From positions 901 through 64,900 of IMG/VR virus record IMGVR_UViG_3300037839_000499: DNA of 64,000 nucleotides; one strand, written 5' to 3'. The notes beneath the pieces are model-generated. The model saw nothing but the letters and a program-made list of their open reading frames with translations, made no database searches and was not told the origin of the DNA. Shown here in pieces: positions 1,449 through 54,183 of the stretch; within the stretch, counting starts at the first letter, position 1; each line of letters starts with the position of its first letter. The translations under genes were made by a program, and so were the position numbers. Source of the DNA: a virus (taxonomy: Duplodnaviria > Caudoviricetes).

Positions 1449-1467
1449 GCGGACGAAAAACGTTTAA
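1449..1467 (+). promoter_or_regulatory. Motif A copy (RCGGAC-N7-GTTNAA)
   Basis: GCGGAC gaaaaac GTTTAA gggt ATG(1472). Confidence 0.75.
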
Positions 1468-2714: not shown

Positions 2715-2740
2715 GCGGCACAGAGCAACCTTCATTGTTG
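2715..2740 (+). promoter_or_regulatory. Motif B copy (GCGGCACASAGC-N10-GTTG), putative late promoter
   Basis: GCGGCACAGAGC aaccttcatt GTTG; starts 57 nt before GTG 2772. Confidence 0.65.
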
Positions 2741-6066: not shown

Positions 6067-6299
6067 TGAAAAAGAGTAAGCCAAAAAAAAAGTCCCGCTC
6101 TTTGAAATACGAGAAAACAGCATTGAAGGTAAGTCCCTTGGGCCTTAGTTTTCCGGATAATTTTATGGCAATCATGGGATGGAAGCGAGTATATGAAAAA
6201 TAAGCCAAAGAGTCTTTCAGAAAAACGGAGAGCCAACAAATTCGGCGAGTGGAAAACATCCACTTACGGATCTGGCAAAGGCACCGAAGTCTACTGGTC

Positions 6300-8063: not shown

Positions 8064-8089
8064 GCGGCACACAGCCACAGAAGTAGTTG
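8064..8089 (+). promoter_or_regulatory. Motif B copy
   Basis: GCGGCACACAGC cacagaagta GTTG; starts 57 nt before ATG 8121. Confidence 0.7.
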
Positions 8090-10020: not shown

Positions 10021-13000
10021 ATGTCCTTACCCGATTTTGGTGGAACTGGAGTTGACGGCAAGCCAGAGGATAGCTTTGGTGGGCCAGAACCAGAGTATGT
10101 GCCGAGGACGAGGAGTGAGGCTCGGAGTCTTGAGCAGGAGCAAACAGGGAAGATCAAGGAAGCCACAAGGGCGTATAACTACGGATCAGAGCAAGCTCTT
10201 GAAGAGGCTGGTATAAAATACAAGACGGACGAGCAAGGATTTGTTCAACCCCGCTATGAACCGAATAATGAGTTTGGAAGGTCTGTTGAGTTTGGGACTT
10301 CGGAGTTCAAGGATCCGATTACCGAAGAAACGAGGCAGATTGATAAAACCGGAAAAGTTAAGCCCAAGAAACGGCAGAACGTAACGTATAAGTCTGGCGA
10401 CGCAAACAACCCTAATTTTCCCAATCCGTCTAGGATATACAGAGTATATACACGCGAGCAGGACGCTGGAGTTGAGGATCCCAATCAGCCTTTTGCAGCA
10501 ACTAAGGCAGAAGATATTGGAAGTGCTTTCGACTTGCAGGGGGTTTCAGATCAAGGCATTTCATCGCTGGCCAAGGAAGCCGTAAGGAAAAATAGGCAAT
10601 ACGAGCTTAGTTCGGCCAAGTCGGTGCTGGACGCAAGAGGCCAGCAGCTGGATGTCGAGTCGGAGACGTTCAAATCCCAGATCGATACCCTTAACCAAAC
10701 GCCAATCCCAGATTGGCAGCCCGACGGAGACAAAATGGATCCAGCCATCGCGGCGGAGGTTGGCGGTAAGGCTGACGCAAAAACTAGGCAAAATGTGGCC
10801 GCAAGAATTGGAATGTCCAGAGACCAGAAGATTGGCGAGGTCAGTTCGCAGTTGGCCGAAAAGAATAAGGAAAGAATCCGCAATCGTGCGCTCCAGGTCG
10901 AGCTTCAGTCGCAAATGTCCTTTGATGAGGGTGAGTCCATATATGACAACCGCGTTCAACAGCTTCTAAAGAATGGAGCAAAACAAGAGGATATTGATAA
11001 GGATCCGCTTATCGGAGCAATCCGAGAGGGGCTTACAAACATTCAGAAGCCTGTCCTGCCCTTGTCAGAGGTTTTCAAGGATCCAACGCTTGCCCCGCAG
11101 GCAATTTATGAAACAAGGGCATCCCAGCGTGAAAAGGCAAGAATTGAGGCCGAGGGAAGGCTTGCCAAGGAAAAGGCCACAGAATTTCTAAAGCCATTTA
11201 TTGAGCAGGCGGCCGACACGTCCATCAGTTACACGACATTGGCTGGGCGCAGAAATAGGCTTTCTTCTGTTTACAACAAACTTCTAGAGGACGCCGATTC
11301 ATCCGACACAAACCAGAAGGGATCTGGACTAAATCTGCGCGCGCAGGCGGCTGGTTACGCGGAAGCCATCGGAGTTCTTGACGACCAGCTTGGTAGAATT
11401 GGCAAGCAAGCCTTGATAGCCCAGGATGGGGCAAAGATTCAGGGTGAGTTTGCAAAAGAGAAGGAGCAGCGGGTTCAACAGGAGTTGAAGACCAGACTTA
11501 CGAAGCTCGAGCAAGAAACTGCGCTCAAGGTTGAGAAGTTTAAGCAACGCAAAGAGCTGGAAGATGGAGCCTTCATGGGCCCGCCGGCTCCTGAGGACAT
11601 TCCTCCATCCACGCCAACACAAGGTTCTCCGACCCAACCCACGACACCCTCCCAACCAGAAAGTCCGACAAGCTGGTTCCAAGGCGGTCTTAATAACCTC
11701 TTTAGCAAAGACACGATGCGACAAGCAACTCGAGGATACTTTGAGCTTAATCAGAAGTTTGCCTCTGGAACTTACCTTGCCGCCGCAAACTCGTTAAGAA
11801 TCCGCGGCCAAGAAATGCCGACAATGGGATCTGAGTTTGTTGGCGCAATGACCACATCCCCGTCTATGCCTGCCAAAATTATGGCGGTTCTGGGTATGGT
11901 CGACAGGCAGTTTGGAGGGAAACTTCACAATAAGGCCGCAAATTACTTTGAAGAATCTGCGACCGCAGCCAAGGAGAACGAGACAGCCATACGCAACGAG
12001 AAGTTCCTTGGAGCCGAGCCGGTAAGTCCAGAGTGGCGGGAAAGCGATGTCGGCCAAGTGGTCAAGTCGCTTACCGAGCTTCCGTTTTACATCGGCACAA
12101 CAATGATCAATCCGGCTGTCGGGTTTATTGCTACATTTGGCACGTCCTACGACGAGGCCATCCAAAACCAGCTGAATTCGGGAGTAAGAAATCCAGATCA
12201 TGTCACGGCCTTGGCTGAAGCAATCCCAGTAGCAGCAGCCGAAAGCCTTGGAAATATGGTCCAACTTGGACTAGCTAAATCTCTTGGCAGGAAGTTCATT
12301 CAAAACCTCGAAAGTATGACAGCTAGAAGCCTTCGTGGCCTTTTCGCAAGTGCGGCCATGAAAATCGGGGGAGGCTCTGCATTCGAAGGGATGGAGGAAG
12401 GCGTTCAAACGTGGTGGTCAAATATGATTGCCAAGCATATCGGTAAATTTGATCCAAACAGACCGCTAGATAAAGACGTTTGGAAAAGTATCTACGTTGC
12501 GATGTGGGCCGGTGGAGCTGGAGTTACCGTAATGGGAGGCGGAACTGTTGTTCTGACAGGCGCACAGAACGCACTCAATGAGCGTGGGCTTCGGAAACAG
12601 GTCGACGAAATGAGGACAGCTACCGAGGACATTCCTCTAAACGGATGGGAGGACTGGGGAAATAAACTTCCAGAGCAAGTGCTGGATCCTGGACTGGCTG
12701 AAAGTTTTGGCGAAATCGGTGCTGATCTTGATGAGCAACAAGGGCAATTCCTTGTTGGATTGGCTGACAGCATTAAGGGCGCGCCATTCAGAAGATTGCT
12801 GGAACTTGGCAAATCAATCGACGAAAGCATTAATCAACCGCCCGCTCTTCAAAGCCGAGCGGCCGGGATCCTGACCGGAGCCAAAAACGAACAATTGAAG
12901 GGTGAGGCAGACTTATATGCCGAAAGGGCTAACCTTGCCGCGATTATGCAGGGAGAGGCACAACTTCGCTTGCGTGTCGCAAGGGAGATTGGAACGCTTC

Positions 13001-16000
13001 CGACTGACCCTGTTGACGGCGGTCTGGATCAACAGGCGACTGGTCTTATCGCTGCCAAGGTTTTGTTTGGATCTAGCGGAGTTACCCAAGAGGAGCTGAA
13101 GGCAAAATACCGAGGGATGCCAATCATCCAAACCGACTCTAATGGTATTCAAGTGCCATCAGAGTTTGTGAAGCAGGACATATTTTCACAAGCGCCAACC
13201 ATGTCCGAACAGCTGAAAGGATTTTTAAGTCGGGTAGATCAAGCTATGGCAAAAGCGGAAGTTTCTGGCGGTGCGAGCGCAGAACCCCCAGAGCCACCGA
13301 AGCCAGAGCAGAAGCCAACCGGGAAGCCGAGACAAGTTGATCAAGCGAACCTGAAGACCCCGCGCCAGATCGCGGAGGCCAGCGCAAAGACAGGATCCCC
13401 CGCTCTGATGGCAAGGCTGGAAGGCACGACCCCGGACGAGAGATGGGCATCGGTTGAGTCGAAGATGAAAAATCTCGTAACAGCCATCGGCTCAAAGGGG
13501 CTGGATGTGAAATTTCTCTCTGATGACAGGCAAGAAGCATCTTCTGCCGGATTTGATGTGGACAACAAAACACTCCGTATCAACCTCAACCGAAAGGCTT
13601 TCATGGATATGGAGGGTACTGATCCAGAGGCAAACAACCGGTATGTAAGGGAAGAGATAGCTCACCTTGGAGACATTGCAGAGGGGGCATTGGACGCAAA
13701 AAGACAGGGCAAGGACAACTACCGCGAGCATTGGGAACAGCAACGCGCGACCATGCTTTCAAGAATCTTTAATGTCGCAAAGCAAGACAAGGCAGTAGAG
13801 GAATCGGTGGTAGCGGCTGCAAATCTTTATCTTGAAAACGTCTTTAGCAAGCCGATGACGGATGACGGCGGGAACAAGTTCTCGTCTACGAGCGCACCGA
13901 TGTCCGCCACGATGGATGCGCTTGTCCGTGGCGAAGTGATGCCTCAGTTCAAAACAATTTCAGATGTTCAGCGGTACATGGTTCGGAATGGGGTGGGCGG
14001 GGAGAAGGGTGTTCGTGCGATGCCCCTCTTTATGGCTGAGATGCTTCGGATGCTTAAGACGTATGGACAGCCCCAAACGGAATCTAGAAACTACCTCCGC
14101 ACGGCCGCGAAAACAACGGGAGGTTCGCGAGCCATTATCAAGATCATTTCCGATTACCTTCGAAAAGTATACAAAGCGCTGTTTTCCATTAAGGATAGCC
14201 TGGTCAAAGCCGACCCTCAGCTGGCTGAAGATTTGAGCAACCTCTTGTCTGAAATAGACGATGTTCTCTCTGATTCACCTAGCCAGCCAAGAGTGGAAAT
14301 AAATCCACGTAGCCCCAATGAGCCACAAGCTCCAGAGGCCAAGCCCCGCGCCCCACCCGAAACAGGTGAAAATGTCCCGCAACCGCCAGTTGAACCGCCG
14401 GTTATCGCCCCTCAAGGAGGAGGTCAAGCAGTTGGAACTATTGCACCGCCAGCGACAAGAATAGTCCCTCGAGGCCGGATGGTATCAGTTACCTATGACA
14501 AGCTTGGGTCTGGGGGAGTGGAATCAGTCACGGAACAAGTCCAGCTGACAAAGGAGCAAGAACTAGAGTGGGAAAAGGGCGAGGCGAATTACCGGCAGTC
14601 AGCGGAGATGGCTAAAAGGACAAAAGATCCGGCCATGCGCTCGAGCCGGATGCAAGGCGCTGGGTATGAGTGGGCGAAAAGAAAGAGGGAGATAACTGGC
14701 CGACTCCATTACAGGGAGCAGATGGAGAAAGAAGCCCGAGAGAAAAAAAATTACATCGGCAAGAAGGTTGGGATTCAGGCTGAGGAGGGGATTCTCTCGG
14801 CAACTATTATTGGGAATCCGTTCGGGCGGGTTAAGGTTCGGCTTGAGGACGGGCAAGAGCTTACGGTTCTGCCAGATCAGCTGACGAGCGCGCCCGAGAT
14901 CGAGCAAGACGAACCCACGACAATTCCATCTGGTCAAGTTGTCGATTTCCCAGTCAATAAGATCGTTGTTAACGACAAGATCCAGCAATTCAAAAAGAAG
15001 GCCAAGAAGGATTCGGGAGTCGTAAAAGCTCTAACTGGAGAATACCAAGCAACTCCGAAGAACCCGATTGTTATCTGGGAGCGAAACGACGGAGTGTTCG
15101 AGGTTATTACGGGCCGTCATCGGCTGGATCTGGCCAAGCGAAACAACATGGCAACAGTTCCAGCCCAAATCGTCAAAGAATCAGAGGGATGGACACAAGA
15201 AAAAGCTGAAACTTTCGATGCCGAAGCGAACATCCGCGACGGCCAAGGCGACCTCGAGGACTTTGCCTACTATTTTAGAAAGTCTGGAATCAGCCAGCAG
15301 GACGCCGAAGTAAAGGGTCTGTTGCGAGATGACGGCAAGGGGAAAGCTGGATTCTTAATCGCCAACGAGGCGACTGAAGATGTTTATGCAGGGCTAATGG
15401 CCGGCAAGGTGGACGCAGGGATGGCGGTTATTATCGCCTCTGGTGCTCCGAAATCTGTTGGAGCCGTCAATGAATCGATCCAGAGGGCGGCCTTGAACTA
15501 TGTTACTTCAGAAAGAGTAACCCAGCAGGACGTTCGCAACTTCATCTCAGGGATGATCGCAACGTTCGCCGATAAGGGGCCATCCGAGTCGCAATCAGAC
15601 CTGTTTGGTAGCGATGACTCCGCCTTGGAGCTGATGAAGCAACGAGCAAAGAAGGCCTCAAAGATCCAAAGGGATGTGCGTCAAAAGCTGAACGCAATGT
15701 TGAATTTCAAAAAGCTGAGCCGAGAGGGGCAGGCTCAAGCCTTAGAGGATGTAGGTGTAACCATAGCTGTGGGAGAAGACTCCGTGGCGAAGGTAAACCA
15801 AAAAATAACGGATCTGCAGGCCGAACTCGCCTCTTGGGAGAGATGGGCTACGGATCCAGAGAAGGTGGGCCAGATCGACCAAATGCCTAACATCAAGGCA
15901 CAAAGGATTAACATCCAGGCTCAGCGTATTGACGACACCCAAGAAGGAGGCGTAGACTCTAATAGTGAAGAACGAACTCAATCCGGAACAAGTGAAGGAA

Positions 16001-19000
16001 TACAGCCGACTGGCAGCGGAGGAGGCATATCCCCGACTGGTGAAGTGGCAACGGGACAACCCGGAGAACTTCAGAATGTGGAAGACGGACGCGGACGCCC
16101 TTTATCAGGATCCGTGGATCAACGACTTGACGGAGGATCCGGAGAGAACCAAGGATTGGCTGACAACGCTGTTCCGGCAAGCGTGCGGATCAGTAGAGGG
16201 CCACAACCAAATCTTGGCGCTCTTCAGTCGCTCCAAAGGAGAGAACCGAGAGTCGAAGTTGGGCGAACTGCTAATGTCGATGACGCTGAACGAGTTTTAG
16301 GCGAGGGTCTAGAAACCCAAGTTCCTTGGGTTCCGGTTATTCAGGGTAGCGGGGTTAGCCTAAAGACATTTGCTCCCGCTGGCATTGCGGACGAGATGCG
16401 CAGAAACTTGGAGAGAATCGACAGGGAGCGCGGTGGATTAGAGCAGTACGTAGCTAATGCGCTTGGCCTTGCAGACACTTCCGAGCTTTACCGAGTCATA
16501 AATCCAAAGGCTGGATCTAGGCTCAACAAGGAGCAAGTTGAGACAATCGCGGCCGCGCTTGACCGCATGGATGCAGGTAAGTCCTGTATTATTGGACATG
16601 AGATGGGCATAGGCAAGGGGCGCCCGTGCGCAGCTATCCTTTACGTGGCCTATTTGCGCGGCCAAATCCCGATCTTCTTTACGGCTAACTCGAGAACCTT
16701 GTATCCGACTCTAATGGATGACTTTAAGGATCTTGGATTCAAGATGGATCCATTTATTACCGACCAAGACTTTGAATCAGTAATGGGTGATGGAAGTGTT
16801 TTAACAAACAAGGGTAAAAATCCGAAGGCATTGTTCGATTCGATTGCAGCAAGCAAGAAATTGCCGACTGGCAAGACGATGATAATGACCACATGGGAGC
16901 AGGCGCGGCTCAAGGATGTGAACGCTGTTCTTAACGCCTTGGCTCCAAATGCGGTCTTCGTAATCGACGAGGCTCACAAAGGAACTGGCGATTCGCTCTC
17001 ATCGGAAGTTGCTCGAGGCATTCTGAAGAAAGCAAAAGGAGTGACGTTCTCCAGCGGAACAGCCATTAAGAATCTTGAGGCGATGCGCCTCTATTTCCCA
17101 TTCACTTCCGTCAATCGGGCCATTCCTTCCGTTCGCCGGCTAAACCAGCTTCTCAAGAAGTTTGCCAATCCTTTGCTCGAGCTGATGAATCGAGGCCTTG
17201 TCTCTGCGGGTGAGTATATTCGCTACCAGAGAGGCCTGACCCATAATGGCGAGCCGGTACCATTTACCGCATTGGCTCTACGTACTGGACCACAGGTTGT
17301 GGAGGTGAACGAGACGGCAAACGAAATCGCTGGCGAGTTAAAACAGATCCAAGCAGGGCCGTTTATGAAGCAGTTGCGCGGGGTGCTCATGCCTCTGGTG
17401 AAAACTAAGGCAGCCGCAATGATCGAGGACAAGCCCGAGCTGGCTGCAACGCTGACAATAAAAGTAGAGCCGTACCCCATGAAGTCGCAGTTCCACAATA
17501 TCGCAAACATCATGGTGCTGGCCTCGAAAATCCCCGAGATTTCAAAGCAGATTAAAGCCCTGGTCGATCAAGGCAATAAGGTGTTTGTAGCCTCTGACGC
17601 AACTGGGGAAGCCGCAGTACAAGAGTTGCTTGATGATATTTCGCTAGAAACCGACCCAAAGAATGCTTCGTTTGCGGATGCCCTTTCCCGATATACCGAC
17701 AAGCTAAAGTACATAACTATCACGGCAAAGGTCGGCCCCAAGGGTAGGCAACAGACCTTATTCCGCCAAAAGCTCGATCTGAATAGAGCGCAGGAAGAGT
17801 ACCCAGAGGCAGTAGAGAGAGCGCAACAAGTACTACAGCAGATTGCTGATGCCAAGAGCATGATTGAGTCCTCAAGGAATATTCTTGGGAGACTAGGCAT
17901 CTCGCCGATGGATTCACTCCGACAACAGCTGGAGTCAGTACAGATCCCAAGCGTCGAGATCTCCGGCCGGTCGGCCACAGTGATGCCTGATGGAACCCGC
18001 GAAAAGCGGACGGAGCTAGACCAAGACCGAATGGCCTCGCTTTCGATGTTTAACAACTTGGACGATATGAATGTAATTTCAGTTTCACGCTCTGGCTCAA
18101 CTGGGATTAACGCCCATAATTCCCCTAAATTTAACTCTCAAAAGGATCGCGTATTCTTTCTTTTGCAGCCGTCTCCGAACGTAGTGGACACAGTTCAGGT
18201 TGCCGCCCGCGTGAATCGAACCGGACAGCTGACGGCGCCTCACCTTTACATGGCCTATGCCGAGGAGTTGCCTGCAGAAAAGCGGATGATGGCTCTAACA
18301 GCCAAGAAGATGTCGAAGCTCGGAGCGTCAAGCACCGGCGGACAAAAGCTCGATATGTCGGAAACCTTTGGGGAGGACATGCACAACGCTTACGGAGATC
18401 TGGCAATGGCCAATGTTCTGGCAAGGGACGAAACATTCAGACAAGAGTTTCAGTCTAGGCATAACGAATACTTCCCAGGATCCAATGAAGAGGAGGTTCG
18501 GGCAAACCTAATGAAGGGAGCTGGCAACGGAGATGTGTTCAGAAGGTTTGAGCACATGCTTATCATTATGCCTTTGGACATTTACTCCCAAATTTCGGAG
18601 CAAATACGCGACGAATATAATGAGATCGTTGAGACGGAAAAGATGGCTGGACGATACAACCTCACGTCCGAAAAGATGGACTACAAGGCGGTGCTGGTGG
18701 ATGACATGCCGGGAATGGCCCCATACAGCCCCCGCAGGGAAGGCGAACCAGATATCGGGACCGCCCAGCCCACGCAACTTCGCAGATATCGATTTACCAA
18801 CCCAACGCCACCGCCGGCATCCGAACAGCTGATTAAGGACATCGACAAGGTGAAGGCCGATACGGCTCAACTTGTGCAGAAATACAACGAATCAGCGGAG
18901 AAATACCTGAGCGACAGGGTCAATTTGATTACAAGCCGATCCCGCCTTGATCCAAATGCAAGGAATCTGCTTATTCAGGCCATCACAAGAAAGATGGCGG

Positions 19001-22000
19001 TAGCCCAAGCGGCCGTGGCGGCTGCGGCTGAAAAGGTGGGCGGAGGCTACTGGTATCACATTAACGACACTCAAGTTCCAGTTTTTGTGACTGGCTTACG
19101 GCTGAACATTAAGTATCCGCATGTTGTCGCTTCTCAGCGTATGCTTATCCAAAGCGCGGGGTTCAACCATCTCATGCCGGTTCCAATTTCCGCCAACCCT
19201 CTTTCTCGGTTGGCATCGGCCCAAGCCGCTTTCAATAATAACCCGCTCGAGCAGAACGAGCTTGGCATCGAGATGCCCCTTCTGGACATCACTCCGACTG
19301 GCCAAGACTCCGAGGCGGCTTTCTATCGCTCATTCCAGCAGACGGAAACGTATGCAGCTGCAAAAGCTTGGGAGAACCATCCTTTCGCACTCCGAGAAAA
19401 ATACATGAGCTTCGCTATGGATAGAGCCGGGTATAGGCCTGGATTCTTCAGAGTTAACCGCAAATTCTCAGACGGAAAGACGGTGAATAGTCTTTATTAC
19501 GACGGGAACACGATTATCGAGATGTCTCCTGTGCGTACCCGCGAGATTCTTTCCTTTGTGTCTGAAAAGACTGAGAACGCCCAGACCGAAAAAGAGGTAG
19601 TTGACGCATTTGCTGAGGCGTTGGATGTAACGCAGGACATCGACACAATAACCGATGAGGGCGCGGTAGCTACGGATCAAGGGCAAAAGCAATTTGTAGG
19701 CAAGATGAACAACCGCCGGCGCAACCAAGTTGTATCTGGTGCGTATGACCGCGAGCGCCAGAAGGCGATGCAACAAGACCACTTCGTTATTGCTGGCAAT
19801 CCCTTGGTGGCTGCAGATATGGCGACTAGGTTGTTTGGCCAGCAGTTAAATCACCGCATCATGCGATTCACTAATCAGGACGGAAGTGAGACAACTGGCA
19901 TTGTTGTTCCCGCCCAAGCCGAGTTCAGTCAGCTCAGGAAGCTTTCAGACGTAATGAATACCAAAGAGACAATTCAGCGTTCTGATGCCGAGAGGGTGCT
20001 GGACTTCCTGAATAGCACCATCACAAGACACCATAACGCAACGGAGGTCGTGTTTACGGACGGAGCCACAATTTCATACGCAACCACAGAGGCAACGGCC
20101 ATTGAGACACCCCATTCACTCAAATCGATAATCCCAAATCGAGTGTGGGAAATGGCGCAAGATCAGCTGGCCGACTTATCTGTTGTGGAGGAGGGAGGAG
20201 TCCCTGATGAGGTCAGAGCGGAGCTTGAGAAGTTAGTTCCTGGAGCAAAGGTATCGGCAGAGGGGCCATACATTGTTGTTGCAATGGGTGGTTTTGATGC
20301 CGGAAAATACATCGCTAAGAGGATGGCGAGGGCTTCCGACAGGATCGCTACTGGCGCAACGCCTATTGAAGGTTACGCCTATTCCGGCCCCCGCTCAGTT
20401 CAAATTCACGCCCAGCGGATTGGGGATGAAATCACCCCAGAGATATGGAACTACTACCGGATCGCCACCCAACAGACTACTGACTCAGATGGGGGCGTGG
20501 GGCCGTCGCCAGCAGTTCGAATGGTTCTACGAATGTTCCCGAATATGGATGCCTCGTATGTGGAGGATTCAGCTGTTTCTGGTGTTCTGAAAGCCATTAA
20601 AGCTCTTGCCGTAATGCGGACGCAGGATCCGGGCAAGTTTGCCGAAATGGAGGGATCCATGACTCCTGAAGGCGGAATACCCAAGAAGATTTTCTCCTAC
20701 ATGGTCGAAGCCGCCAAAAACAGCGTGCTTACGTCCTACCAAAAGTTTGGGCAGTACGAGGTTGACCCACCCGAGCAACAAGGGATGCAGATGCTTGAGG
20801 ATGAGGAAACCGTGGCCGAGGTTCTGGCGGGTAGGGCAACCGCATTTAGCGATGATGAGGGGCCGGACATCGTTACTCCCAAGGAGATAGAAGAGACTGA
20901 GTTTACCAAGGCCCTGCGTAGCGACATGGAAGCCGCATTCCAGATTATTGATCCACGCTTGGCCCAAGTGTTTGTCGCTCACAACCGAGGAATGACATTC
21001 GAGGCAATTGCAGATGAATTTGCGTTGCCACCGATTATCGGGAAGGACGGGAAGCAACGCCCAAACAAGCAGATGGCCCAGCGTATGTACGATGATGCGC
21101 TCCGAGCCTTACAAGACTTTGCTGGTGACAATAGCTTGTTCGCAACCAACTCGAGGCCACAAAAGCCTGTGAGTAGGGCATTGCGGCTCGCCATGGAAGC
21201 AGGGCTAATTCGACCCATGTCGATCAACGCACAGCGGATCTACACAACCGATTCTGAGGAAGACGGTGAAACAGCGAACCTTGTTCGGCAGTTCCGTAGC
21301 ACCCAGCTTGGGCAGGCCATTGCGGCGCTTCGTTCTGGACCGCAACCAGCCGGCAACCTCATCCGTGGGATTGCGGAGCCAGCAAACGAAAACAATAAGG
21401 CGATCCAAGCCTACTACCGGCTTCTTAGCCAAGCCTTGGTCAAGGGTATTGAGGCCAACCCATCGTCATTCCTTGGCAGGGCATCAAATACCGACGTAGT
21501 AATCGATGAATCGATCCCAACGTCTCACTTCTCGTCGAGCAAAATGGATCCGTTTACGATGGGAATTATCCGGCTTCACCCTGGTCAATTGAGTCCGAGG
21601 GTAATTCTGCATGAATTTGTTCATGCCTTTACCGCTCAACTCATTGGAACCGAAATCATTAAGAATTTCCAACCTCGCCGTGGAGAGATGACTGGATCGA
21701 AGTATCGCGAGGCATTAACCACTTACGCCAACAAGCAACCCATCGATACAGACAACCCAACAGGGGCGATCCCCGCGATGCAGAGCCTTGTGAAGGCATA
21801 TCTTGGGGCATTGAAGTACGCCAAAGACGATGCCGGTCAACCGATTGAGAACGCAATCTTTGGTTCTGGCCTAACTGCCAGCTTCTCAATCACGTTGCCT
21901 ATGCACCGAGCGAGCTATGCCGGCGGATTGCATATGTCGGCGCACATTGATGCGTCCAATTCAAAGGCTATCTATGACCACTTTACCGAACTTGGGCTTG

Positions 22001-25000
22001 AGGGTAAGGCTGGAGTGCCGAATGACACTCTTGATGCCTATGTAAATAAGAATGGTTCGACCAATGACTTCTTTATCTCCAGTCCGGCCGGATCGCTTGC
22101 TGGCCTAGAGGTTGAGGCTGACGGAAAGCTCATACTTACCCCTTCTGGGCTAGAAAAGCTAAGGACTCAGAATGTAGCCCCTTCGGCATATTCAACTTAC
22201 ACCATACGCTCCTCGAAGCCTGTGTTTAAGCAGAGGATTCTGGGCGTGGTTGGCGATCCCACGAAAAGGGCGATGTCGATTCTCTATGGATTCAAGAACA
22301 TTGACGAGTTTTCCGCTGAAACGATGAGCAACCCTTCATTTGTGGGTATGATTGCTGGTCTGGATGTGCCGAAAGGGCTAACCAAGACCCCGCATGACTA
22401 TCTGATTGAATGGTTTGATCAGCTGGAGTCAGATCTGCTGAACCTAAAGGGTGGAATGAAGGGAGCCGTGAGGAACATGGCTGCCGGAACCCTAGTAGGG
22501 TCGACGGCTGGATCCTTGATGGACATCGGATCGATCAAGATTACCGATTATCAGACTATTCTTGGGAATCGAGAGTCAGCCACAAGGTCAGAATCTCCCA
22601 CACAACAAGGACAGCTTTTTGCCCAAAGGATCGGCGGAGATAGGCTTGAGGAGAAGATTACAAACACAATTCAGGCGATGCCAAGGGGCGGCCTAATTAC
22701 TACTACTAAAGGGGCATTCTCGATACGGCCGAGGGTTGGGTCGGATGGTTGGGTAACGAGGGGAATCGACAATCCAAGAAGGGTTATCACTAAGACCATC
22801 TCGGCCGCCGTTGCTGGGTTGCCCGGGATCCGCGGTATGGTGCAAGTGGTTAAGTCCTACACCCGCGATGACGTAGCCCCTTCGGATCTAGGCGGTGAAA
22901 AGAACCCATTAGCCTTGGAATACAAGAAGTTAACCGATATTCCGACCCCCACCGATGAACAGCGCAAGCGGATCTCAGAAATCGAGAGGTTTGCCACCAA
23001 GTACAAGATGCCAGGAGTCGGCGTTCAGCAAGCCTTGTTCGACACGGGCAAATACGCTGGGTCGCCCAATCGGCCAACGGGATCTACTCCATCCGTTATC
23101 GAGACTCCGCCAGCTAGGTTTATCGCACCCCAAATGGAGCTTGCCCTTAATGCCCAACGGATTGAGCCAAGCGGATCCCAAAAAATCCTTTCTGAAATTA
23201 ACCAGCTTCGCGCGATGCGTGACTCTGGCCAGTCCTACAACGAGAAGCGGTTGCGCCAACTAGAGTTTACTGCCAGCCAAACCAAGCTGGCCGGGTATCA
23301 GCCGGAAGGCCAGCTGATGGCCACAGAGACAAGCCTCAATCCAACAGTTCAGCCCTTTGCGTTAGAGCAAGAAACAAGGCCGGCAATGGTGCAACAGAAT
23401 TTGTTTGCTCAAAGGATTGATTACGACGACAACGGAAACCCTGTGGTTACGCCAAAGCCACTTACCCCAGAAGAGTTAATGTCTATCCGAGCCGACCTCT
23501 TGGGTGACTTGGGTAAAGATGCCCCAGAAGTGATGGCGATGTATCGCAAGTTACGTATCCAGCCATCTGGGGTTAAGACGCTGGGTGGAGTCTACCAAAC
23601 AGGCGAAAACGGCGGGCCGGCGAGAAGCTTGGCAAACCCTGGACAAACAGCCGAACAGCGGGACTTGATTAACGCGATGGATGCGATGCGTTTCCAGCGT
23701 GGGCTTGGGATTAAGCAGGATTCGGCAGTTGAGGACGCCGCCACTCAAATTCTTTCTACGCCGGAAGGTCGGCTTGGAGTCCAAGAGGCCGTTCTATCAG
23801 GTCAGTCTCTAAACACGGAAACAACATTAGCGGCCATGAAAATGGTCGGAGAGATGGTGCAAGAGGCAATTACCAGCGAAAACGCTGAGGACTTAGGTAA
23901 GGCATACGCTATGACGTACATGTATCGAGAAGCCAGATCCGAGACCGCTCGCTCCCTTCGGATTGGCTACGACAGGCTAATGACGCCAGCTCAGCGACAC
24001 TCTGAGTTTCTTATGGCCGTAATGGTTCAGCCTGAGCGAAACAGGATTCTTGAACTAAAGTATTACCCAACCGAATCCCAAAACCGAAGCGATATAAGAA
24101 GCTTGCAGGCAACACTTGAGGATTTGCTTAAGGAAAGAAACGACTTACTAGGCTCCCAAGGCAACTCGGAAGAGATGGCGGCCGTGCTGGAACAGAGGAA
24201 CGCCGAGATTCAAGCAATGCAGGCGCAAATCGCGGATTTACAGAATCGCGTGACTCGAGAGCAAGTTATGGCCCAAGAAGCACAAGAGAGGTTGGCGGAT
24301 GTAAATCGCACGCTCGCTGGCCTTGGAACAAGTCTCCAGCAGTTAATGAAGGAGTCCGAGCTTTCAGAAATTAGAACAGGACGGCCGGCTACCCAAATGC
24401 TGGATCAAGTGAGGCTTTCTCCAAAGGAACGTGAGGCGGTGGAGCTGATTATGATCGGGCATGACCCGGTTTCAGTTTCCAAGCAAACCAAAGTTAAGCT
24501 GGTGGATATTAAGGGTGCGATGGATGTCATGCGGTCTGAGGCCAAAAGAAGGTTTAGCCAGATCGCTCAAAGCGGGATGACCCGAGACCAGCTCCGCAAG
24601 GCGCTCCTCGAAAACGCAAGAACGGACGCTTCGATGAGGCAGATATTGGCCCAGCGGATTCCAGACAATCAGCCGTTGGGCGAGGAAGAGGCGATGGAGG
24701 AGATCTACAACATGCTGGGCCTTACGCTTACCCCAACTGGTGACTATAAGTGGGCTGAGCGCAAGGGCAAAAGCAACCTCTTCGACCTACGGAAACCAGA
24801 ACATATCGTGGTGCTTGCAAAATCCATTCAAGCCGGGAAGCCAACAATCGACGGAACTATATTTGAGGCTTACGTCGCAAGCATTTTCAGCGGATTCGCA
24901 ACGCAAATTGCAAATATGGCGATGACCCCACTTTCCCCAATCACAACATCTGTTCATCGCGGATTTCAAGCGCTTACTACATATCTTTTGGGCAAGGCCG

Positions 25001-26976: not shown

Positions 26977-29166
26977 ATGGCTGAAACGCAGATAGATACG
27001 CTTTTGGAGAGCACGGACGCCCTTGAAAAGGCCATAGACCAAGCCAAACCGCTGGAAGGCGGGGAGGCACTAGGAGGCGGATCCCCAGCTCCCAATAGCT
27101 TTTCAACAGCCTATCTGCTTACGGCGGAACAGGAGAAAAACCTAGTCGCCCACGCCATAAGAAGGCTCCGGGAAACCGAAGCCGACATGGGTCGCAACCT
27201 CACCCGATCTGCCGCTTGGCATAACAATATGTCGGGCGGGATTCCGGCTCATGATACTTTCCTTGGTAGAAGGCAGATATTTGAATGGATTTACGAGAAT
27301 AACGTAAGCTGGCGTCCGTTCACGATGGGCGGAATCTTTGAGCATAGTAATCTCATCGTTCCGTTAACTCGCAGGATTGCTCGGCAAATGATCGCTCGAG
27401 CCGTTAAGTATTTCCTTGGTACAGACCCTTGGTTCGGGGTTTTGCCAGAAGGATCCTCAGATCGGAATGTGGCCGACCGGCTTGAAAAGTACGCCCGATT
27501 TAAGTTTGACCGACTGAAGATTAAGGATGCCCTAAAGATGGCCATCCAGATTGCATTTGTCCGAGGGGAGTGCGTCGTCAAAACCACCTACACCCAGAAA
27601 GATCAAATATATAAAAAGCTCCTGCGGGTAATGGTAGACGGCCAAGGGAATCCCATTATGGCGGCCGACGGTGATTTTATTACAGAAAACGACCGGTTTG
27701 CCCCATCTCAAGACGGCCAAATGGTTCTCCAGAGAGACATGCAGACCCCGCAACCCATGTTCCCAATCTTTATGGAGCAATTGGTTACACGGAAGTCCGA
27801 CATATTTATCGGGCCTGCGGCCGAGCCAGTATACTTTCAAGACTTTTTGTGTCCGCTAAATGCGTCTTCTGTCGATGATGCCGATTTCTGCGCTCATCTT
27901 TACGATGCACCGGTGATGGAGCTGGCCGACCTTTACAGGAAAAAGGGAGTCGGATCGGAGGATCCAGACGAAGAGCTGGCAAGAATCCGTAGCGTGATTG
28001 AGCAGATTCGGCTGGCCTCAAGCGAAAGCGGAGATCCCAAAACAGGGGCTGGGCAAGCTAGGTCTGAACGAGGTGAGGGTCAGGTGGGGGTCAACAATAC
28101 AGCCCAGCCGTCCCTTGAAGTGGCTGAATGCTACATTCGCTACGATGCGGATGGCGACGGGATTACCGAAGAAATTATGCTACTTCTCGATGTTAAGAAC
28201 CAAAAAGCCATCTTTTATGAGTACACAGCCAATGTAACTGCTGACGGTAAGAGGCCGTTCACAGTTCTTAGGGTTAATCCAGTAGACGGCCGGTGGTATG
28301 GGATCGGAGCGGTGGAGCAGTTTAAGTCCTCGCAGGACTTTATTGATCTGACGGTAAACCGATTAAACTTTGCCCAAGGAGCAAGCGGGCGGATCACGTT
28401 CTGGAGGCCAGACGCCACTTACGAGGGATCCTCTAATCCAAACCTAGTTCTCAACAGCGGAGGCACTTACACGCTTCGCCCAGGATTTTCAGCCAAGGAT
28501 GCCGTTGAATATGTGGCACTCCCAGAGACCAAAAACGACCAGCTGAGCTTCATGTTGAACTATTTTACGCAGATTGTTCAGCTGGAGTCAGGGATTGTGA
28601 ATCCCGGCGACCAAGACTTTGCGGGTCTTCCAAGTTCCAAGCTGGCAACCGGAATCCGCTCGATTGACGCTTCGGGCCAAGAAATGTTTAGCCAATACAT
28701 TCAAGACATGCTCGCCCCGCTGATGCAGATTATGAATCGTCTCGTTCTGCTACTACTCAAAAACTTAGACAAGAAGGAGGCTTTCAACTATCTCGAAGGA
28801 GATGCGTTGAGTCTTATCTCTATCGGGCCAGATGACGTAAAGGGCATGGAATTGAATATAAAATTACTTCTAACCCGCTTCTACGGAGAGCAACAGCTTC
28901 AGAGTAATGCCCAAGCGGCCAATCTTGTGACGCAATTTTACTCCCTCCCGCCCGAAATTCAGCAGAAAGTATCCTTGTTCTACACTCAATCATTGAAGTC
29001 CCTTGGCGTTGTAGAGGCCGAGCAGATTATTCAGCCATTTGAAGTAACAGGGGCAACTACCCAAGATGGAAGAGTTTTCGGGCAATCCGGATCCCCAGGA
29101 GCGCCAGCCGGTGCAGTTGGGAATCCAAGACAAGTACCACTAGATCCCGGATCCGCTGGCGGATGA
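26977..29166 (+). CDS. Portal protein
   Basis: 729 aa; YDADGDGITEE, RPFTV..GRWYGIGAVE..QDFID..N and ATGI patterns typical of podovirus-type portals; position upstream of scaffold and capsid. Confidence 0.85.
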   Translation: MAETQIDTLLESTDALEKAIDQAKPLEGGEALGGGSPAPNSFSTAYLLTAEQEKNLVAHAIRRLRETEADMGRNLTRSAAWHNNMSGGIPAHDTFLGRRQIFEWIYENNVSWRPFTMGGIFEHSNLIVPLTRRIARQMIARAVKYFLGTDPWFGVLPEGSSDRNVADRLEKYARFKFDRLKIKDALKMAIQIAFVRGECVVKTTYTQKDQIYKKLLRVMVDGQGNPIMAADGDFITENDRFAPSQDGQMVLQRDMQTPQPMFPIFMEQLVTRKSDIFIGPAAEPVYFQDFLCPLNASSVDDADFCAHLYDAPVMELADLYRKKGVGSEDPDEELARIRSVIEQIRLASSESGDPKTGAGQARSERGEGQVGVNNTAQPSLEVAECYIRYDADGDGITEEIMLLLDVKNQKAIFYEYTANVTADGKRPFTVLRVNPVDGRWYGIGAVEQFKSSQDFIDLTVNRLNFAQGASGRITFWRPDATYEGSSNPNLVLNSGGTYTLRPGFSAKDAVEYVALPETKNDQLSFMLNYFTQIVQLESGIVNPGDQDFAGLPSSKLATGIRSIDASGQEMFSQYIQDMLAPLMQIMNRLVLLLLKNLDKKEAFNYLEGDALSLISIGPDDVKGMELNIKLLLTRFYGEQQLQSNAQAANLVTQFYSLPPEIQQKVSLFYTQSLKSLGVVEAEQIIQPFEVTGATTQDGRVFGQSGSPGAPAGAVGNPRQVPLDPGSAGG

Positions 29167-33479: not shown

Positions 33480-33505
33480 GCGGCACACAGCCAATCAACA
33501 TGTTG
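33480..33505 (+). promoter_or_regulatory. Motif B copy
   Basis: GCGGCACACAGC caatcaacat GTTG; starts 57 nt before ATG 33537. Confidence 0.7.
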
Positions 33506-49607: not shown

Positions 49608-49608
49608 T

Positions 49609-50455: not shown

Positions 50456-50600
50456 GTAGTCTGTCCTTTAACCACAGCGCAAAGGCCGTGCATGCCACCA
50501 AAACCGCTAAAAGAAGCATTGCAAAACCAACGGCAAAGCCGACGTAAACAAGCTTTGCGACTAGGCTTGCTGGGATGTTTTCTATGAGGAAATTCATAGA

Positions 50601-54157: not shown

Positions 54158-54183
54158 GCGGCACACAGCAAACACGGAAGTTG
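54158..54183 (+). promoter_or_regulatory. Motif B copy
   Basis: GCGGCACACAGC aaacacggaa GTTG; starts 58 nt before GTG 54216. Confidence 0.65.

What the first reader, a model, noticed from the sequence alone, without database searches (positions are those of the whole stretch)
20422..21228. A complete sigma70/ECF-like factor embedded in the virion polyprotein, flanked by AQRI on both sides
Seen: the roughly 270-aa segment between AQRI copies 3 and 4 has a region 2-like pattern (YVEDSAVSGVLKAI...IFSYMVEAAKNSVLTSYQK) and a region 4-like HTH (MEAAFQIIDPRLAQVFVAHNRGMTFEAIADEF...KQMAQRMYDDALRALQ). Inference: the phage injects its own sigma factor with the DNA, releases it by cleavage, and redirects host RNA polymerase to the non-sigma70 motif A in front of the early genes. 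This would be a sigma-based analogue of virion-packaged RNA polymerases such as N4 vRNAP, and no phage RNAP is visible in the window. Motif B is an alternative target.
Basis: partly seen in the sequence, partly recalled or inferred. Interest (0 to 1): 0.88.

Follow-up and report, generated by a model that had tools for sequence, protein, structure and literature searches.

The report
Sigma-factor module inside giant phage protein
An uncultured 65-kb phage carries a diverged sigma-factor-like module inside a 5,648-residue multi-domain protein encoded among its head genes, so it may bring its own promoter-recognition factor into the host with its DNA, although packaging, cleavage and activity are not shown.

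Summary
Window 20422-21228 encodes 269 aa lying exactly between AQRI copies 3 and 4 of a 5,648-aa ORF (10021-26967) that sits between terminase and portal. AQRI occurs 8 times against 0.11 expected.

Sequence evidence for a sigma identity is weak: Pfam finds nothing and TIGR02937 scores E=0.0014, below its cut-off. Several other lines converge:
- An AF2 model gives two helical domains joined by an acidic linker.
- Foldseek's best PDB and phage matches are almost all sigma factors, though none has a significant E-value.
- The N-domain is placed on the beta' clamp helices (ipSAE 0.62, best control 0.30).
- Two distant polyprotein relatives carry a segment of the same size between their own repeated motif, and it hits sigma models at E=1e-8 to 1e-9.
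- The segment is the best-conserved part of the polyprotein (dN/dS 0.02-0.07).

Delivery in the virion, cleavage at AQRI and promoter choice remain inference. Motif A (N7 spacer, 4 nt before ATG) does not fit sigma geometry. Motif B (GGCAC-N15-GTTG, 57-58 nt upstream of four operons) fits better.

Unchecked AI notes from this scan report similar sigma-like modules in head polyproteins of other phages. My literature searches found no published case.

The parts
10021..26967 (+). Gene for the 5,648-aa polyvalent (multi-domain) protein that carries the module. It lies between the terminase large subunit (6249-8063) and the portal (26977-29166).
   Evidence: ORF list and translation. Terminase, portal and major head protein by PHROGs. 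ParB-like and Sno/SNF2-like domains.
20410..20421 (+). AQRI copy 3 (context QIHAQRIGD), the N-terminal boundary of the module.
20422..21228 (+). Sigma-like module, 269 aa (residues 3468-3736 of the polyprotein).
20422..20757 (+). N-terminal helical domain (module residues 1-112), sigma2-like. Helices 6-16, 30-38, 44-68, 70-77 and 88-109.
   Evidence: AF2 on this domain alone gives pLDDT 85.7 and pTM 0.77. The only Foldseek hits with rmsd <6 A and TMq >=0.35 are sigma domain-2 structures. 20 of 30 nearest named Atlas clusters carry Sigma70_r2.
20551..20625 (+). Region-2.2-like helix (module residues 44-68, includes YVEDSAVSGVLKAIKAL), the predicted contact with the beta' clamp helices.
   Evidence: The predicted interface uses residues 43-60 and 4-17. 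MAFFT aligns it with RpoE PDVVQEAFIKAYRAL.
20683..20748 (+). Region-2.3/2.4-like helix (module residues 88-109, KKIFSYMVEAAKNSVLTSYQKF), with the nearly invariant Asn100.
   Evidence: The TIGR02937 match starts at residue 88, profile position 50. N100 is nearly invariant in alignment A6. It aligns with MAYIDRAVKNNLRTRL of the distant relatives.
20758..20898 (+). Acidic, predicted disordered linker (module residues 113-159; pI 4.05; 15 D/E against 2 K/R).
   Evidence: pLDDT <50 for residues 110-159. Composition.
20899..21126 (+). C-terminal sigma4-like HTH domain (module residues 160-235). Helices 160-175, 178-188, 193-199 and 216-234, with a beta-hairpin (about residues 205-212) inserted in the turn of the HTH.
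   Evidence: AF2. hhalign against 9 ECF sigmas gives P=8.8e-4 for residues 169-207 against template 129-168. A197 is nearly invariant.
21127..21228 (+). Basic C-terminal tail (module residues 236-269, pI 11.5), mostly low confidence, with a short helix at 252-259.
21229..21240 (+). AQRI copy 4 (context SINAQRIYT), the C-terminal boundary of the module.
15898..15930 (+). AQRI copies 1 and 2 in tandem (KAQRINIQAQRID), between the ParB-containing N-terminal part and the helicase part.
22621..22632 (+). AQRI copy 5 (QLFAQRIGG).
23152..23163 (+). AQRI copy 6 (ALNAQRIEP).
23407..23418 (+). AQRI copy 7 (NLFAQRIDY).
24649..24660 (+). AQRI copy 8 (QILAQRIPD).
14893..15456 (+). ParB-like domain of the polyprotein (aa about 1625-1812).
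   Evidence: PHROGs 3264 and 1033, E=1e-4 to 3e-4.
16522..18663 (+). Strawberry-notch/SNF2-like helicase of the polyprotein (ResIII, AAA_34, Helicase_C_4).
   Evidence: Pfam Helicase_C_4 at E=4.9e-18 and ResIII at 4e-5.
21610..21624 (+). The only HExxH motif of the polyprotein (HEFVH, aa 3864), in the segment after the sigma-like module. It is a candidate processing metallopeptidase by motif only.
   Evidence: Regex. No family or PDB support.
25876..25932 (+). The only strongly hydrophobic 19-aa stretch (aa 5286-5304), followed by DDDDD, in the C-terminal part shared with distant relatives.
   Evidence: Kyte-Doolittle scan. C-terminal homology with P0010 and P0011.
8064..8089 (+). Motif B copy (GCGGCACACAGC-N10-GTTG) 57 nt before the first gene (8121) of the operon that contains the polyprotein and the portal. 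It is a candidate promoter (inference).
2715..2740 (+). Motif B copy before the tail-fibre block (start 2772).
33480..33505 (+). Motif B copy before the block that begins with the 322-aa ORF at 33537 and includes the capsid gene.
54158..54183 (+). Motif B copy before 54216, upstream of the array of small genes that carry motif A.

Best explanation
The 269-aa stretch is a strongly diverged member, or close structural relative, of the sigma70 family with the compact ECF-like build: a sigma2-like helical domain, a 47-aa acidic linker and a sigma4-like helix-turn-helix domain. It is one cargo module of a 5,648-aa polyvalent protein encoded in the head-gene operon, and it is delimited on both sides by the conserved linker motif [IL]xAQRI.

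Most likely mechanism (steps 1-3 and 5 inferred; step 4 supported only by modelling):
1. The giant protein is packaged into the capsid.
2. It is cut at the AQRI linkers, by an unidentified protease or by its own HExxH segment.
3. The pieces leave the capsid with the DNA.
4. The freed sigma module binds the host core RNA polymerase through the beta' clamp helices.
5. It directs the polymerase to phage-specific promoters. Motif B (GCGGCACASAGC-N10-GTTG) is the best candidate. Motif A is not.

My odds: about 0.8 for the sigma-like identity, and about 0.35-0.4 for delivery plus sigma activity. The confidence given for this entry (0.45) is for the statement as a whole.
For: Sequence evidence:
- NCBIfam TIGR02937 (sigma70-ECF) scores E=0.0014 and 18.3 bits, with residues 88-202 on profile 50-145 of 165, which is the right order and register.
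- hhalign against 9 ECF sigmas (E. coli RpoE plus 8 phage sigmas) gives P=8.8e-4 for region 4. Among 128 tiles of all window ORFs, only the segment and two tiles overlapping it reach P<=0.003. The next best is 0.022.
- MAFFT lines up the 2.2-like, 2.3/2.4-like and 4.2-like stretches with RpoE. N100 and A197 are nearly invariant.

Language-model neighbours:
- For the whole segment, 4 of the 4 neighbour clusters that carry a family are sigma families, out of 30 listed.
- For the N-domain alone, 20 of 30 named neighbours carry Sigma70_r2.

Structure:
- AF2 gives two helical domains with a disordered acidic linker. The N-domain alone has pLDDT 85.7.
- In Foldseek against PDB, 24 of the 25 best rows are RNAP-sigma, sigma/anti-sigma or sigma-r4 entries, with alignments of 203-257 columns across both domains.
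- In Foldseek against BFVD, 14 of the 20 best rows are named sigma factors and the other 6 have no functional name.
- For the N-domain, the only matches with rmsd <6 A and TMq >=0.35 are sigma domain 2 structures: SigE N-domain (TMt 0.63, rmsd 3.8), SigA domain 2 and sigma28. SigI1 also reaches TMq 0.35 but at rmsd 7.7.

Core binding:
- With E. coli beta' 250-330 the score is 0.62, against 0.30 for the best of 3 controls.
- That mark was reached by 58 of 80 solved complexes and 2 of 110 mismatched pairs. These counts hold only roughly because my own alignment was used.
- The runs agree in at least 68% of contacts and the partner's pLDDT is at least 74.
- The interface joins beta' 267-294 to module residues 43-60 (the 2.2-like helix) and 4-17.
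- A pass may reflect likeness to solved sigma-beta' complexes. That likeness is itself the question here.

Relatives:
- P0010 and P0011 share 24% identity over the N-terminal ~1,400 aa and 29-31% over the C-terminal ~1,150 aa.
- Each carries a ~277-aa segment between copies of its own repeated motif LQAR[TS][ST].
- That segment hits TIGR02937 at E=1.1e-8 and 6.4e-8 (profile 13-155 of 165), TIGR02985 at 1.5e-9, and Pfam Sigma70_r4_2 at 3e-3 and 1.5e-4. Sigma models make up 9 of 9 and 9 of 10 listed NCBIfam families.
- It aligns colinearly with our segment: 112 columns, 29% identity, P=0.013.

Selection:
- The module is the most conserved of the 8 segments in the three most divergent close relatives (91-93% against 65-88%).
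- dN/dS is 0.023-0.065.

Context:
- The gene lies between terminase and portal. In its main text, the polyvalent-protein survey states that up to 35% of polyvalent proteins are phage- or prophage-encoded and likely to be packaged in the capsid, and that most of those phages have a portal-terminase packaging system (PMC5512222, passages read).
- No domain match straddles an AQRI site. The module's first 5 and last 9 residues are modelled as coil or low confidence.

Promoter candidate:
- Motif B has 4 copies against 0.06 expected, lies 57-58 nt before four operon starts, and is kept at orthologous sites in relatives while spacer and flanks diverge.
- Sigma70-type promoter matches are scarce in 52.5-64 kb: 3 against 8.2 +/- 2.6.
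Against: - No curated threshold is met. Pfam finds nothing for the segment or its fragments. TIGR02937 scores 18.3 bits against a cut-off of 42.9.
- An unrelated coiled-coil segment of the same protein also drew an NCBIfam hit at E=0.0014, so that level alone means little.
- phmmer over 1.84 billion representatives finds only the segment's own cluster.
- Sequence searches of the PDB find no sigma. My own 9-sequence HMM does not find the segment.
- No Foldseek match has E<=0.001. The best values are 0.019, 0.013 and 0.14, and whole-length TM-scores are 0.2-0.26. The full-length model has a mean pLDDT of only 61.7.
- The HTH carries an inserted hairpin in its turn. The helix after it has 3 basic and 3 acidic residues, so binding to a -35 element is uncertain.
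- The link between our segment and the clearer sigma module of the distant relatives is weak by itself (P=0.013, probability 3%).
- The complex was modelled with E. coli beta' as a stand-in for an unknown host.
- Nothing shows packaging, cleavage, ejection or transcription activity.
- Motif B heads mostly structural operons, which is not what one expects of a factor needed at time zero.
Confidence: 0.45

Rival explanations
1. Sigma mimic without promoter recognition. The module binds the sigma site on core RNA polymerase (beta' clamp helices) only to block host sigma factors and shut off host transcription, or to hold the polymerase at the entering DNA. It does not read a promoter.
For: The core-binding surface is the best-supported feature. 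The HTH has an inserted hairpin and a weakly basic recognition helix. The sigma4-like part scores worse than in the distant relatives. Injected host-takeover effectors such as T4 Alt are an accepted class (PMC5512222, passage read).
Against: Both domains and the acidic linker are kept under strong purifying selection. A pure blocker would need only the sigma2-like part. RpoE's own sigma4 is equally non-basic (pI 5.4). The phage has conserved non-sigma70 promoter-like motifs that need some reader.
Confidence: 0.2
2. A late sigma made and used in the producing cell. The module is released from newly made polyprotein and drives the motif-B operons, including its own, as a late-gene sigma. Any packaged copy is incidental.
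For: Motif B heads the tail, internal-protein/portal and capsid blocks. The polyprotein gene is itself in a motif-B operon (8064 before 8121). Free-standing phage sigma factors made after infection are common: 88 phage records match RpoE.
Against: A feedback loop needs a first source of the factor, and a packaged copy would provide it. Embedding a late regulator inside a 5,648-aa head-block protein with eight processing motifs is an odd way to make a soluble factor. A fourth motif-B copy heads the array of small, presumably early, genes. The same embedding recurs in a lineage that shares only the N- and C-terminal parts of the polyprotein.
Confidence: 0.15
3. Not a sigma homologue. A generic helical bundle plus HTH DNA-binding module of an internal virion protein, for example one that binds the packaged genome or its ends. 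The resemblance to sigma factors would come from common helical folds.
For: No match passes a significance threshold. LuxR/FixJ-type HTH proteins also appear among fold hits (ranks 20 and 27). The N-domain's best Foldseek E-values go to unrelated helical proteins (ranks 1-5).
Against: Those unrelated hits have rmsd 12-13 A and TMq 0.25-0.30, whereas the sigma2 hits have rmsd 3.2-5.5 A. Independent methods all point to the same family, in the same domain order and the same register. The positionally equivalent segment of distant relatives hits sigma models at E=1e-8 to 1e-9 over nearly the whole profile.
Confidence: 0.12

Closest known systems
ECF (group 4) sigma70-family factors, e.g. E. coli RpoE, M. 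tuberculosis SigH, P. aeruginosa AlgU
   Same: A two-domain sigma2-linker-sigma4 build of about 200-270 aa. A 2.2-like helix is predicted on the beta' clamp helices. The 2.3/2.4-like helix has the conserved Asn, and the 4.2-like part has the G-x-[ST]-[FY]-x-x-I-A pattern. These proteins are the top fold matches.
   Different: The segment scores below every family threshold. It has an extra N-terminal helix and hairpin. About 17 extra residues lie between the 2.2-like and 2.3-like helices. The acidic linker is 47 aa long. A beta-hairpin is inserted in the HTH turn. There is a basic 34-aa tail. It is not a free-standing gene but residues 3468-3736 of a 5,648-aa protein.
Free-standing phage-encoded sigma factors, e.g. 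the ECF-like sigmas of crAss-like Suoliviridae and Rhizobium phage P10VF found; T4 gp55 and SPO1 gp28 are recalled, not tested
   Same: A phage supplies its own promoter-specificity subunit for the host core polymerase. These proteins are the best BFVD fold matches.
   Different: Those factors are separate genes expressed after infection. This one is embedded in a head-block polyprotein between conserved linker motifs, which suggests it could be present before any phage gene is expressed.
Polyvalent proteins of phages and conjugative elements (Iyer, Burroughs, Anand, de Souza, Aravind 2017, PMC5512222; passages read)
   Same: A giant multi-domain protein with ParB-like and Strawberry-notch-like SWI2/SNF2 modules and a possible zincin motif, in a phage with a portal-terminase system. 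The paper proposes packaging, injection and autoproteolytic release of domains.
   Different: The words 'sigma' and 'promoter' occur 0 times in that paper's main text. I could not see its supplements or its web tables. A sigma-like cargo and an eight-fold [IL]xAQRI linker motif are not described in the passages I read.
Virion-packaged RNA polymerases (N4 vRNAP, phiKZ vRNAP; as described in PMC5512222, PMC7318152 and PMC13282480, passages read)
   Same: The logic is the same: transcription capacity for the first phage genes would travel in the capsid with the DNA.
   Different: Here only a specificity subunit would be delivered, and it would rely on the host's catalytic core. No polymerase domain was recognised in this genome.
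T4 Alt ADP-ribosyltransferase (as described in PMC5512222, passage read)
   Same: A packaged and injected protein that retargets host RNA polymerase to phage DNA.
   Different: Alt is an enzyme that modifies the polymerase. This module would work by stoichiometric binding as a subunit.

Membership tests
sigma70 family (ECF-like) | Sequence match to a family profile at or above its curated threshold | tested here: not met
   Pfam finds no family for the segment or three fragments of it. TIGR02937 scores 18.3 bits against a cut-off of 42.9, E=0.0014. The equivalent segments of distant relatives reach 34.9 and 32.4 bits (E=1e-8), also below the cut-off.
sigma70 family (ECF-like) | Domain order: sigma2, then linker, then sigma4 | tested here: met
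   The AF2 model shows this order. Foldseek alignments of 203-257 columns to sigma chains span both domains in order. The TIGR02937 match is colinear, and so is the MAFFT alignment.
sigma70 family (ECF-like) | Sigma2 (region 2) helical fold | tested here: inconclusive
   The N-domain model is confident (pLDDT 85.7). The best geometric matches are sigma2 domains (8b3z_C TMt 0.63, rmsd 3.8; 4x8k_A rmsd 3.2), but E-values are 0.7-3 and TMq is 0.40-0.42. 20 of 30 named Atlas neighbours carry Sigma70_r2.
sigma70 family (ECF-like) | Region 2.2 binds the beta' clamp helices of core RNA polymerase | tested here: met
   This was tested in silico only. ipSAE is 0.62, against 0.30 for the best of 3 controls. 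The mark was reached by 58 of 80 solved complexes and 2 of 110 mismatched pairs. The runs agree in at least 68% of contacts and the partner's pLDDT is at least 74. The interface joins beta' 267-294 to residues 43-60 and 4-17. E. coli beta' served as a stand-in. Biochemical binding was not tested.
sigma70 family (ECF-like) | Region 4.2 helix-turn-helix | tested here: inconclusive
   hhalign gives P=8.8e-4 for residues 169-207, with 23% probability. The AF2 model has the four-helix layout, but a hairpin (about residues 205-212) sits in the turn. The alignment after the turn is ambiguous.
sigma70 family (ECF-like) | Promoter recognition and -10 melting with core polymerase | not testable with these tools
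   This needs in vitro transcription or 5'-end mapping. The motif B geometry (GGCAC-N15-GTTG) is only suggestive.
Polyvalent proteins (Iyer et al. 2017) | Several (2-15) unrelated effector domains in one polypeptide | tested here: met
   ParB-like domain. Sno/SNF2-like helicase. Sigma-like module (this report). One HExxH motif.
Polyvalent proteins (Iyer et al. 2017) | Phage context with a portal-terminase packaging system and late or structural neighbours | tested here: met
   Terminase at 6249-8063, portal at 26977-29166 and major head protein at 34540-36129.
Polyvalent proteins (Iyer et al. 2017) | Zincin-like metallopeptidase (MPTase) domain for processing | tested here: inconclusive
   There is a single HEFVH motif at aa 3864. 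Pfam, NCBIfam and PDB sequence searches give no match for that segment.
Polyvalent proteins (Iyer et al. 2017) | Packaged in the capsid and delivered with the DNA | not testable with these tools
   This needs virion proteomics. All relatives are uncultured contigs.

The most novel reading that the evidence does not exclude
Some tailed phages ship a ready-made sigma subunit in the capsid as a releasable cargo of a giant polyvalent protein. Host core RNA polymerase would then be captured and given phage promoter specificity the moment the DNA enters, with no phage RNA polymerase and no prior gene expression. In the boldest form, the module stays tethered to, or is released beside, the ejection complex. 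It would recruit core polymerase to the incoming DNA end, and transcription from the private promoters would help pull the genome in. The module occurs in two polyprotein lineages that share only their N- and C-terminal parts. Unchecked notes of this scan report similar modules in other phages. Together these suggest a widespread, undescribed strategy.
Probability: 0.3. Interest if true: 0.85.

Novelty: new variant of a known kind. Interest (0 to 1): 0.7.

Why it matters
Two ways are known for a phage to control transcription from time zero. It can use host promoters, or it can carry a whole RNA polymerase in the virion (N4, phiKZ, crAss-like phages). A packaged sigma subunit would be a third and cheaper solution: borrow the host's catalytic core and bring only the specificity.

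It would also add a transcription-initiation factor to the list of polyvalent-protein cargos. It would explain why this phage has private promoter-like motifs and few sigma70-type matches. And it would give a concrete, testable pair: a 269-aa module and a 26-nt motif.

The eight-fold [IL]xAQRI linker, and the LQAR[TS][ST] linker of the distant lineage, would define processing sites of an unknown phage protease.

Tried and rejected
Searches that found nothing useful:
- tblastn and megablast of the segment or region against 50,697 phage records gave no match.
- phmmer of the segment against 1.84 billion representatives found only its own cluster.
- The word-indexed search found 7 relatives, all 90-94% identical.
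- Pfam on the 8 polyprotein segments and on 3 fragments of the module found no sigma family. The only weak hit was HARE-HTH at E=0.14.
- PHROGs gave only RNase E at E=0.096 for the module.
- PDB sequence searches with the segment, A1 and A5 found no sigma.
- My own hmmbuild of 9 sigma factors did not pick out the segment among 445 window ORFs.
- Six-frame family searches of the phage record for PF04542, TIGR02937 and PF00940 found nothing. The PF00940 control rang nowhere, so that result is uninformative.

Fold searches: none of the three gave E<=0.001. I rely on which families head the lists and on geometry, not on E-values.

Charge of the sigma4-like domain as a test of DNA binding: rejected, because RpoE's own sigma4 is equally acidic.

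Peptidase identity of the HExxH segment: not supported beyond the motif.

Motif A as the sigma target: rejected on geometry (N7 spacer, 4-10 nt before the ATG, + strand only). What motif A does remains open.

The near-site QMAQRM inside the last helix of the module: I do not count it as a linker, because it lies inside a modelled helix and two relatives lack it.

Covariation of module and motif across lineages could not be tested:
- No genomic context could be fetched for P0010 or P0011.
- The A5 search found nothing in viral contigs.
- It found one 4.9-kb contig without flanks in metagenomes.
- The last protein search returned only P0010 and P0011.

Literature: six full-text searches and passages of four papers turned up no virion-packaged or polyvalent-protein-embedded bacterial sigma factor. 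Supplements were closed, and subscription journals are not covered.

Full report
What is there.

The window is almost the whole of a 64.9-kb virus record that CheckV rates as complete. One ORF, 10021..26967 on the + strand, encodes 5,648 aa. It lies between the terminase large subunit (6249-8063) and the portal (26977-29166). The major head protein follows at 34540-36129.

The tetrapeptide AQRI occurs eight times in this protein, at aa 1960, 1967, 3464, 3737, 4201, 4378, 4463 and 4877. Composition predicts 0.11 copies. It occurs once in the five other frames of the window, in a 24-codon ORF. All eight copies fit [IL]-x-A-Q-R-I. In 7 of 7 close relatives the sites are kept as AQ[RT][ILV].

Is the segment sigma-like? 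Sequence evidence.

Direct sequence evidence is weak.
- Pfam gives nothing for the segment or for three fragments of it.
- A phmmer scan of 1.84 billion cluster representatives finds only the segment's own cluster.
- PDB sequence searches find no sigma.
- NCBIfam gives one match, TIGR02937 sigma70-ECF, at E=0.0014 and 18.3 bits against a cut-off of 42.9. It puts residues 88-202 on profile positions 50-145 of 165. That is the register expected if KKIFSYMVEAAKNSVLTSYQK is region 2.3/2.4 and GMTFEAIADEF is the first HTH helix of region 4.2.
- A caution: a coiled-coil segment of the same protein drew an unrelated NCBIfam hit at the same E-value.
- A profile-profile comparison with nine ECF sigmas (E. 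coli RpoE and eight phage sigmas fetched) matches region 4 at P=8.8e-4.
- As a control I tiled every window ORF of 150 aa or more into 128 pieces. Only the segment and the two tiles overlapping it reach P<=0.003, and the next best is 0.022.
- My own small HMM of the nine sigmas does not find the segment.

Is the segment sigma-like? Structure and model-based evidence.

AF2, with only five near-identical sequences, gives two helical domains (residues 1-112 and 160-235) joined by a low-confidence linker. The mean pLDDT is 61.7, with domain blocks at 70-83. The linker is acidic. The N-domain folded alone is confident, with pLDDT 85.7 and pTM 0.77.

Foldseek with the whole model finds no match at E<=0.001, but the order of the lists is striking.
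- In the PDB, 24 of the 25 best rows are RNA polymerase-sigma complexes, sigma/anti-sigma complexes or a sigma-region-4 chimera. Rank 20 is FixJ. The alignments cover 203-257 columns across both domains.
- I did not verify the chain identities separately. The target lengths of 159-346 residues fit sigma chains.
- In BFVD, 14 of the 20 best rows are named sigma factors and the other six have no functional name.
- Whole-length TM-scores are low (0.2-0.26), as expected when two domains hang on a flexible linker.

For the N-domain alone, the best E-values go to unrelated helical proteins at rmsd 12-13 A. The only matches with rmsd under 6 A and TMq of 0.35 or more are sigma domain 2 structures. 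These are the SigE N-domain (TMt 0.63, rmsd 3.8), SigA domain 2 (rmsd 3.2) and sigma28. SigI1 also reaches TMq 0.35, but at rmsd 7.7.

The protein-language-model neighbours agree. For the whole segment, the four neighbour clusters that carry a family, out of 30 listed, are all sigma families. For the N-domain, 20 of 30 named neighbours carry Sigma70_r2.

Core binding.

I modelled the N-domain with residues 250-330 of E. coli beta', which contain the clamp helices.
- The score is 0.62, against 0.30 for the best of three controls.
- The tool's mark was reached by 58 of 80 solved complexes and by 2 of 110 mismatched pairs. These counts hold only roughly, because my own alignment was used.
- The runs agree in at least 68% of contacts, and the partner's pLDDT is at least 74.
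- The pass may come from the model's memory of sigma-beta' complexes, and the host is unknown. It shows that the module looks like a sigma2 domain to the model. It does not show that it binds.

The strongest new evidence: distant relatives.

A search with the C-terminal part of the polyprotein found two distant relatives, P0010 (5,141 aa) and P0011 (4,218 aa). They share only the N-terminal ~1,400 aa (24% identity) and the C-terminal ~1,150 aa (29-31%) with our protein.

Each has its own repeated motif, LQAR[TS][ST]. Between two copies of that motif each carries a ~277-aa segment.
- It hits TIGR02937 at E=1.1e-8 and 6.4e-8, over profile positions 13-155 of 165.
- It hits TIGR02985 at 1.5e-9, and Pfam Sigma70_r4_2 at 3e-3 and 1.5e-4.
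- Nine of nine, and nine of ten, listed NCBIfam families are sigma factors.
- It matches the nine-sigma alignment at P=1.4e-5 with 80% probability.
- It aligns colinearly with our segment from the 2.3/2.4-like helix through the acidic linker to the HTH: 112 columns, 29% identity, P=0.013.

So two lineages of this polyprotein family keep a sigma-like cargo of the same size between processing-type motifs, and in one lineage the sigma identity is clear by sequence.

Selection.

In the three most divergent close relatives the module is the most conserved of the eight segments: 91-93% identity against 65-88% for the others. Its dN/dS against four related contigs is 0.023-0.065.

How it departs from textbook ECF sigmas.
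- An extra N-terminal helix and hairpin.
- About 17 extra residues between the 2.2-like and 2.3-like helices.
- A 47-aa acidic linker.
- A hairpin of about a dozen residues in the HTH turn.
- A basic 34-aa tail.
- The last HTH helix has three basic and three acidic residues. This is not decisive, because RpoE's sigma4 has a similar charge.

What the carrier is.

The polyprotein also holds a ParB-like domain, a Strawberry-notch/SNF2-like helicase, one HExxH motif and one strongly hydrophobic stretch near the C-terminus. No domain match straddles an AQRI site.

This is the architecture of the 'polyvalent proteins' of Iyer et al. 2017 (PMC5512222). In the passages I read, the authors state that up to 35% of these proteins are phage- or prophage-encoded and likely to be packaged in the capsid, and that most of those phages have a portal-terminase system. 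They name ParB-like and Strawberry-notch-like modules, and they propose autoproteolytic release by zincin-like peptidases. The words 'sigma' and 'promoter' occur 0 times in that paper's main text. I could not see its supplements.

A later survey by the same group mentions sigma factors and polyvalent proteins only separately (PMC7824862, passages read). Six full-text searches found no packaged bacterial sigma factor.

Promoter question.

Motif A (RCGGAC-N7-GTKNAA) has 12 copies, all on the + strand. Each lies 4-10 nt before an ATG that opens a 49-293-aa ORF, and 9 of the 12 lie exactly 4 nt before it. Two blocks 7 nt apart, placed where a ribosome-binding site would be, do not fit the -35/-10 geometry of sigma70-family holoenzymes (spacers of about 16-18 bp; textbook knowledge, recalled). 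Motif A looks more like a signal tied to the start codon, and I leave it open.

Motif B (GCGGCACASAGC-N10-GTTG) fits better.
- It has four copies against 0.06 expected. None of 100 shuffles reaches four.
- The copies lie 57-58 nt before the starts at 2772, 8121, 33537 and 54216.
- Read as GGCAC-N15-GTTG, it is close to the GGAAC-N16/17-GTT layout of ECF promoters (recalled).
- An exact-pattern scan of viral contigs found 39 stretches. Twelve are in clear relatives of this phage, at orthologous sites. One is doubtful. The other 26 are in unrelated contigs, which I take as background.
- At the orthologous sites the two blocks are kept while the spacer and flanks diverge. Because I selected by the exact pattern, this shows retention, not the full range of variation.
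- The copy at 54158 lies upstream of the whole motif-A gene array, and the copy at 8064 heads the operon containing the polyprotein itself.
- Sigma70-type promoter matches are scarce in 52.5-64 kb: 3 against 8.2 +/- 2.6 in shuffles.

A coherent but unproven picture is that the four motif-B sites are the promoters of all + strand units and are read by the phage's own sigma-like module.

Verdict.

The sigma-like identity of the module is well supported by converging evidence, none of which is individually significant, and by its clearer counterpart in distant relatives (my odds are about 0.8). Its place between conserved linker motifs in a head-block polyvalent protein is a fact of the sequence.

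Packaging, cleavage, ejection and sigma activity are inference. A core-binding decoy, a late sigma used only in the producing cell, and a non-sigma HTH module remain open.

Unchecked AI notes of this scan report sigma-like modules in head polyproteins of other phages, including a 64.7-kb phage with a 5,605-residue protein. A look-up with my segment's sequence found no look-alike in the scan's index. I did not test those notes and they are not evidence here.

Noticed in passing
window 1449-1467 and 55932-63524: Motif A, RCGGAC-N7-GTKNAA: 12 copies, all on the + strand. Each lies 4 (9 copies), 5, 7 or 10 nt before an ATG that opens a 49-293-aa ORF. Its tight coupling to start codons suggests a translation-linked or leaderless-start signal rather than a -35/-10 promoter.
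   Followed up: partly
window 2715-2740, 8064-8089, 33480-33505, 54158-54183; loci L015, L019, L024, L028, L030, L032, L040-L043, L049, L052: Motif B, GCGGCACASAGC-N10-GTTG, is kept at orthologous sites in 12 related viral contigs while spacer and flanks diverge. Its layout resembles ECF promoters.
   Followed up: partly
window 21076-21087: A near-copy of the linker motif, QMAQRM, lies inside the last helix of the sigma4-like domain. It is present in most relatives but not all. If it were cut, the HTH would be destroyed.
   Followed up: no
proteins P0010 (aa 871, 2100, 2213, 2494, 3957) and P0011 (aa 2096, 2208, 2490): The distant polyprotein lineage uses a different repeated linker motif, LQAR[TS][ST], and carries RuvA_C and ddrB-ParB Pfam domains in place of the Sno-like helicase. 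Only the N- and C-terminal thirds are shared with the window's protein.
   Followed up: partly
window 52500-64000: Sigma70-type promoter matches are fewer than in shuffles (3 against 8.2 +/- 2.6). The small genes there lack room for a normal Shine-Dalgarno sequence. Both features might reflect a host with non-canonical promoters and translation starts. The host is unknown.
   Followed up: no
window 25876-25947: The only strongly hydrophobic stretch of the polyprotein (LTSFGIGTAILAGFLIGGA) is followed by EGDDDDDKK. It could be a membrane-inserting element of an ejection protein.
   Followed up: no
window 43813-53716, minus strand: The minus-strand block holds an ERF-family recombinase (50601-51497), a DUF2800/PD-(D/E)XK nuclease (48540-49769) and a small protein with a resolvase-type HTH (47998-48543). 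None of its genes is preceded by motif A or motif B.
   Followed up: no
phage records (e.g. L007, L009-L012): Many crAss-like Suoliviridae genomes encode free-standing ECF-like sigma factors 24-33% identical to E. coli RpoE.
   Followed up: no
window 23407-24660 (polyprotein segment 7): This coiled-coil segment drew an NCBIfam hit (archaeal SMC-related protein) at E=0.0014. That is the same E-value as the sigma hit of the module, a reminder that this score level is not reliable by itself.
   Followed up: yes
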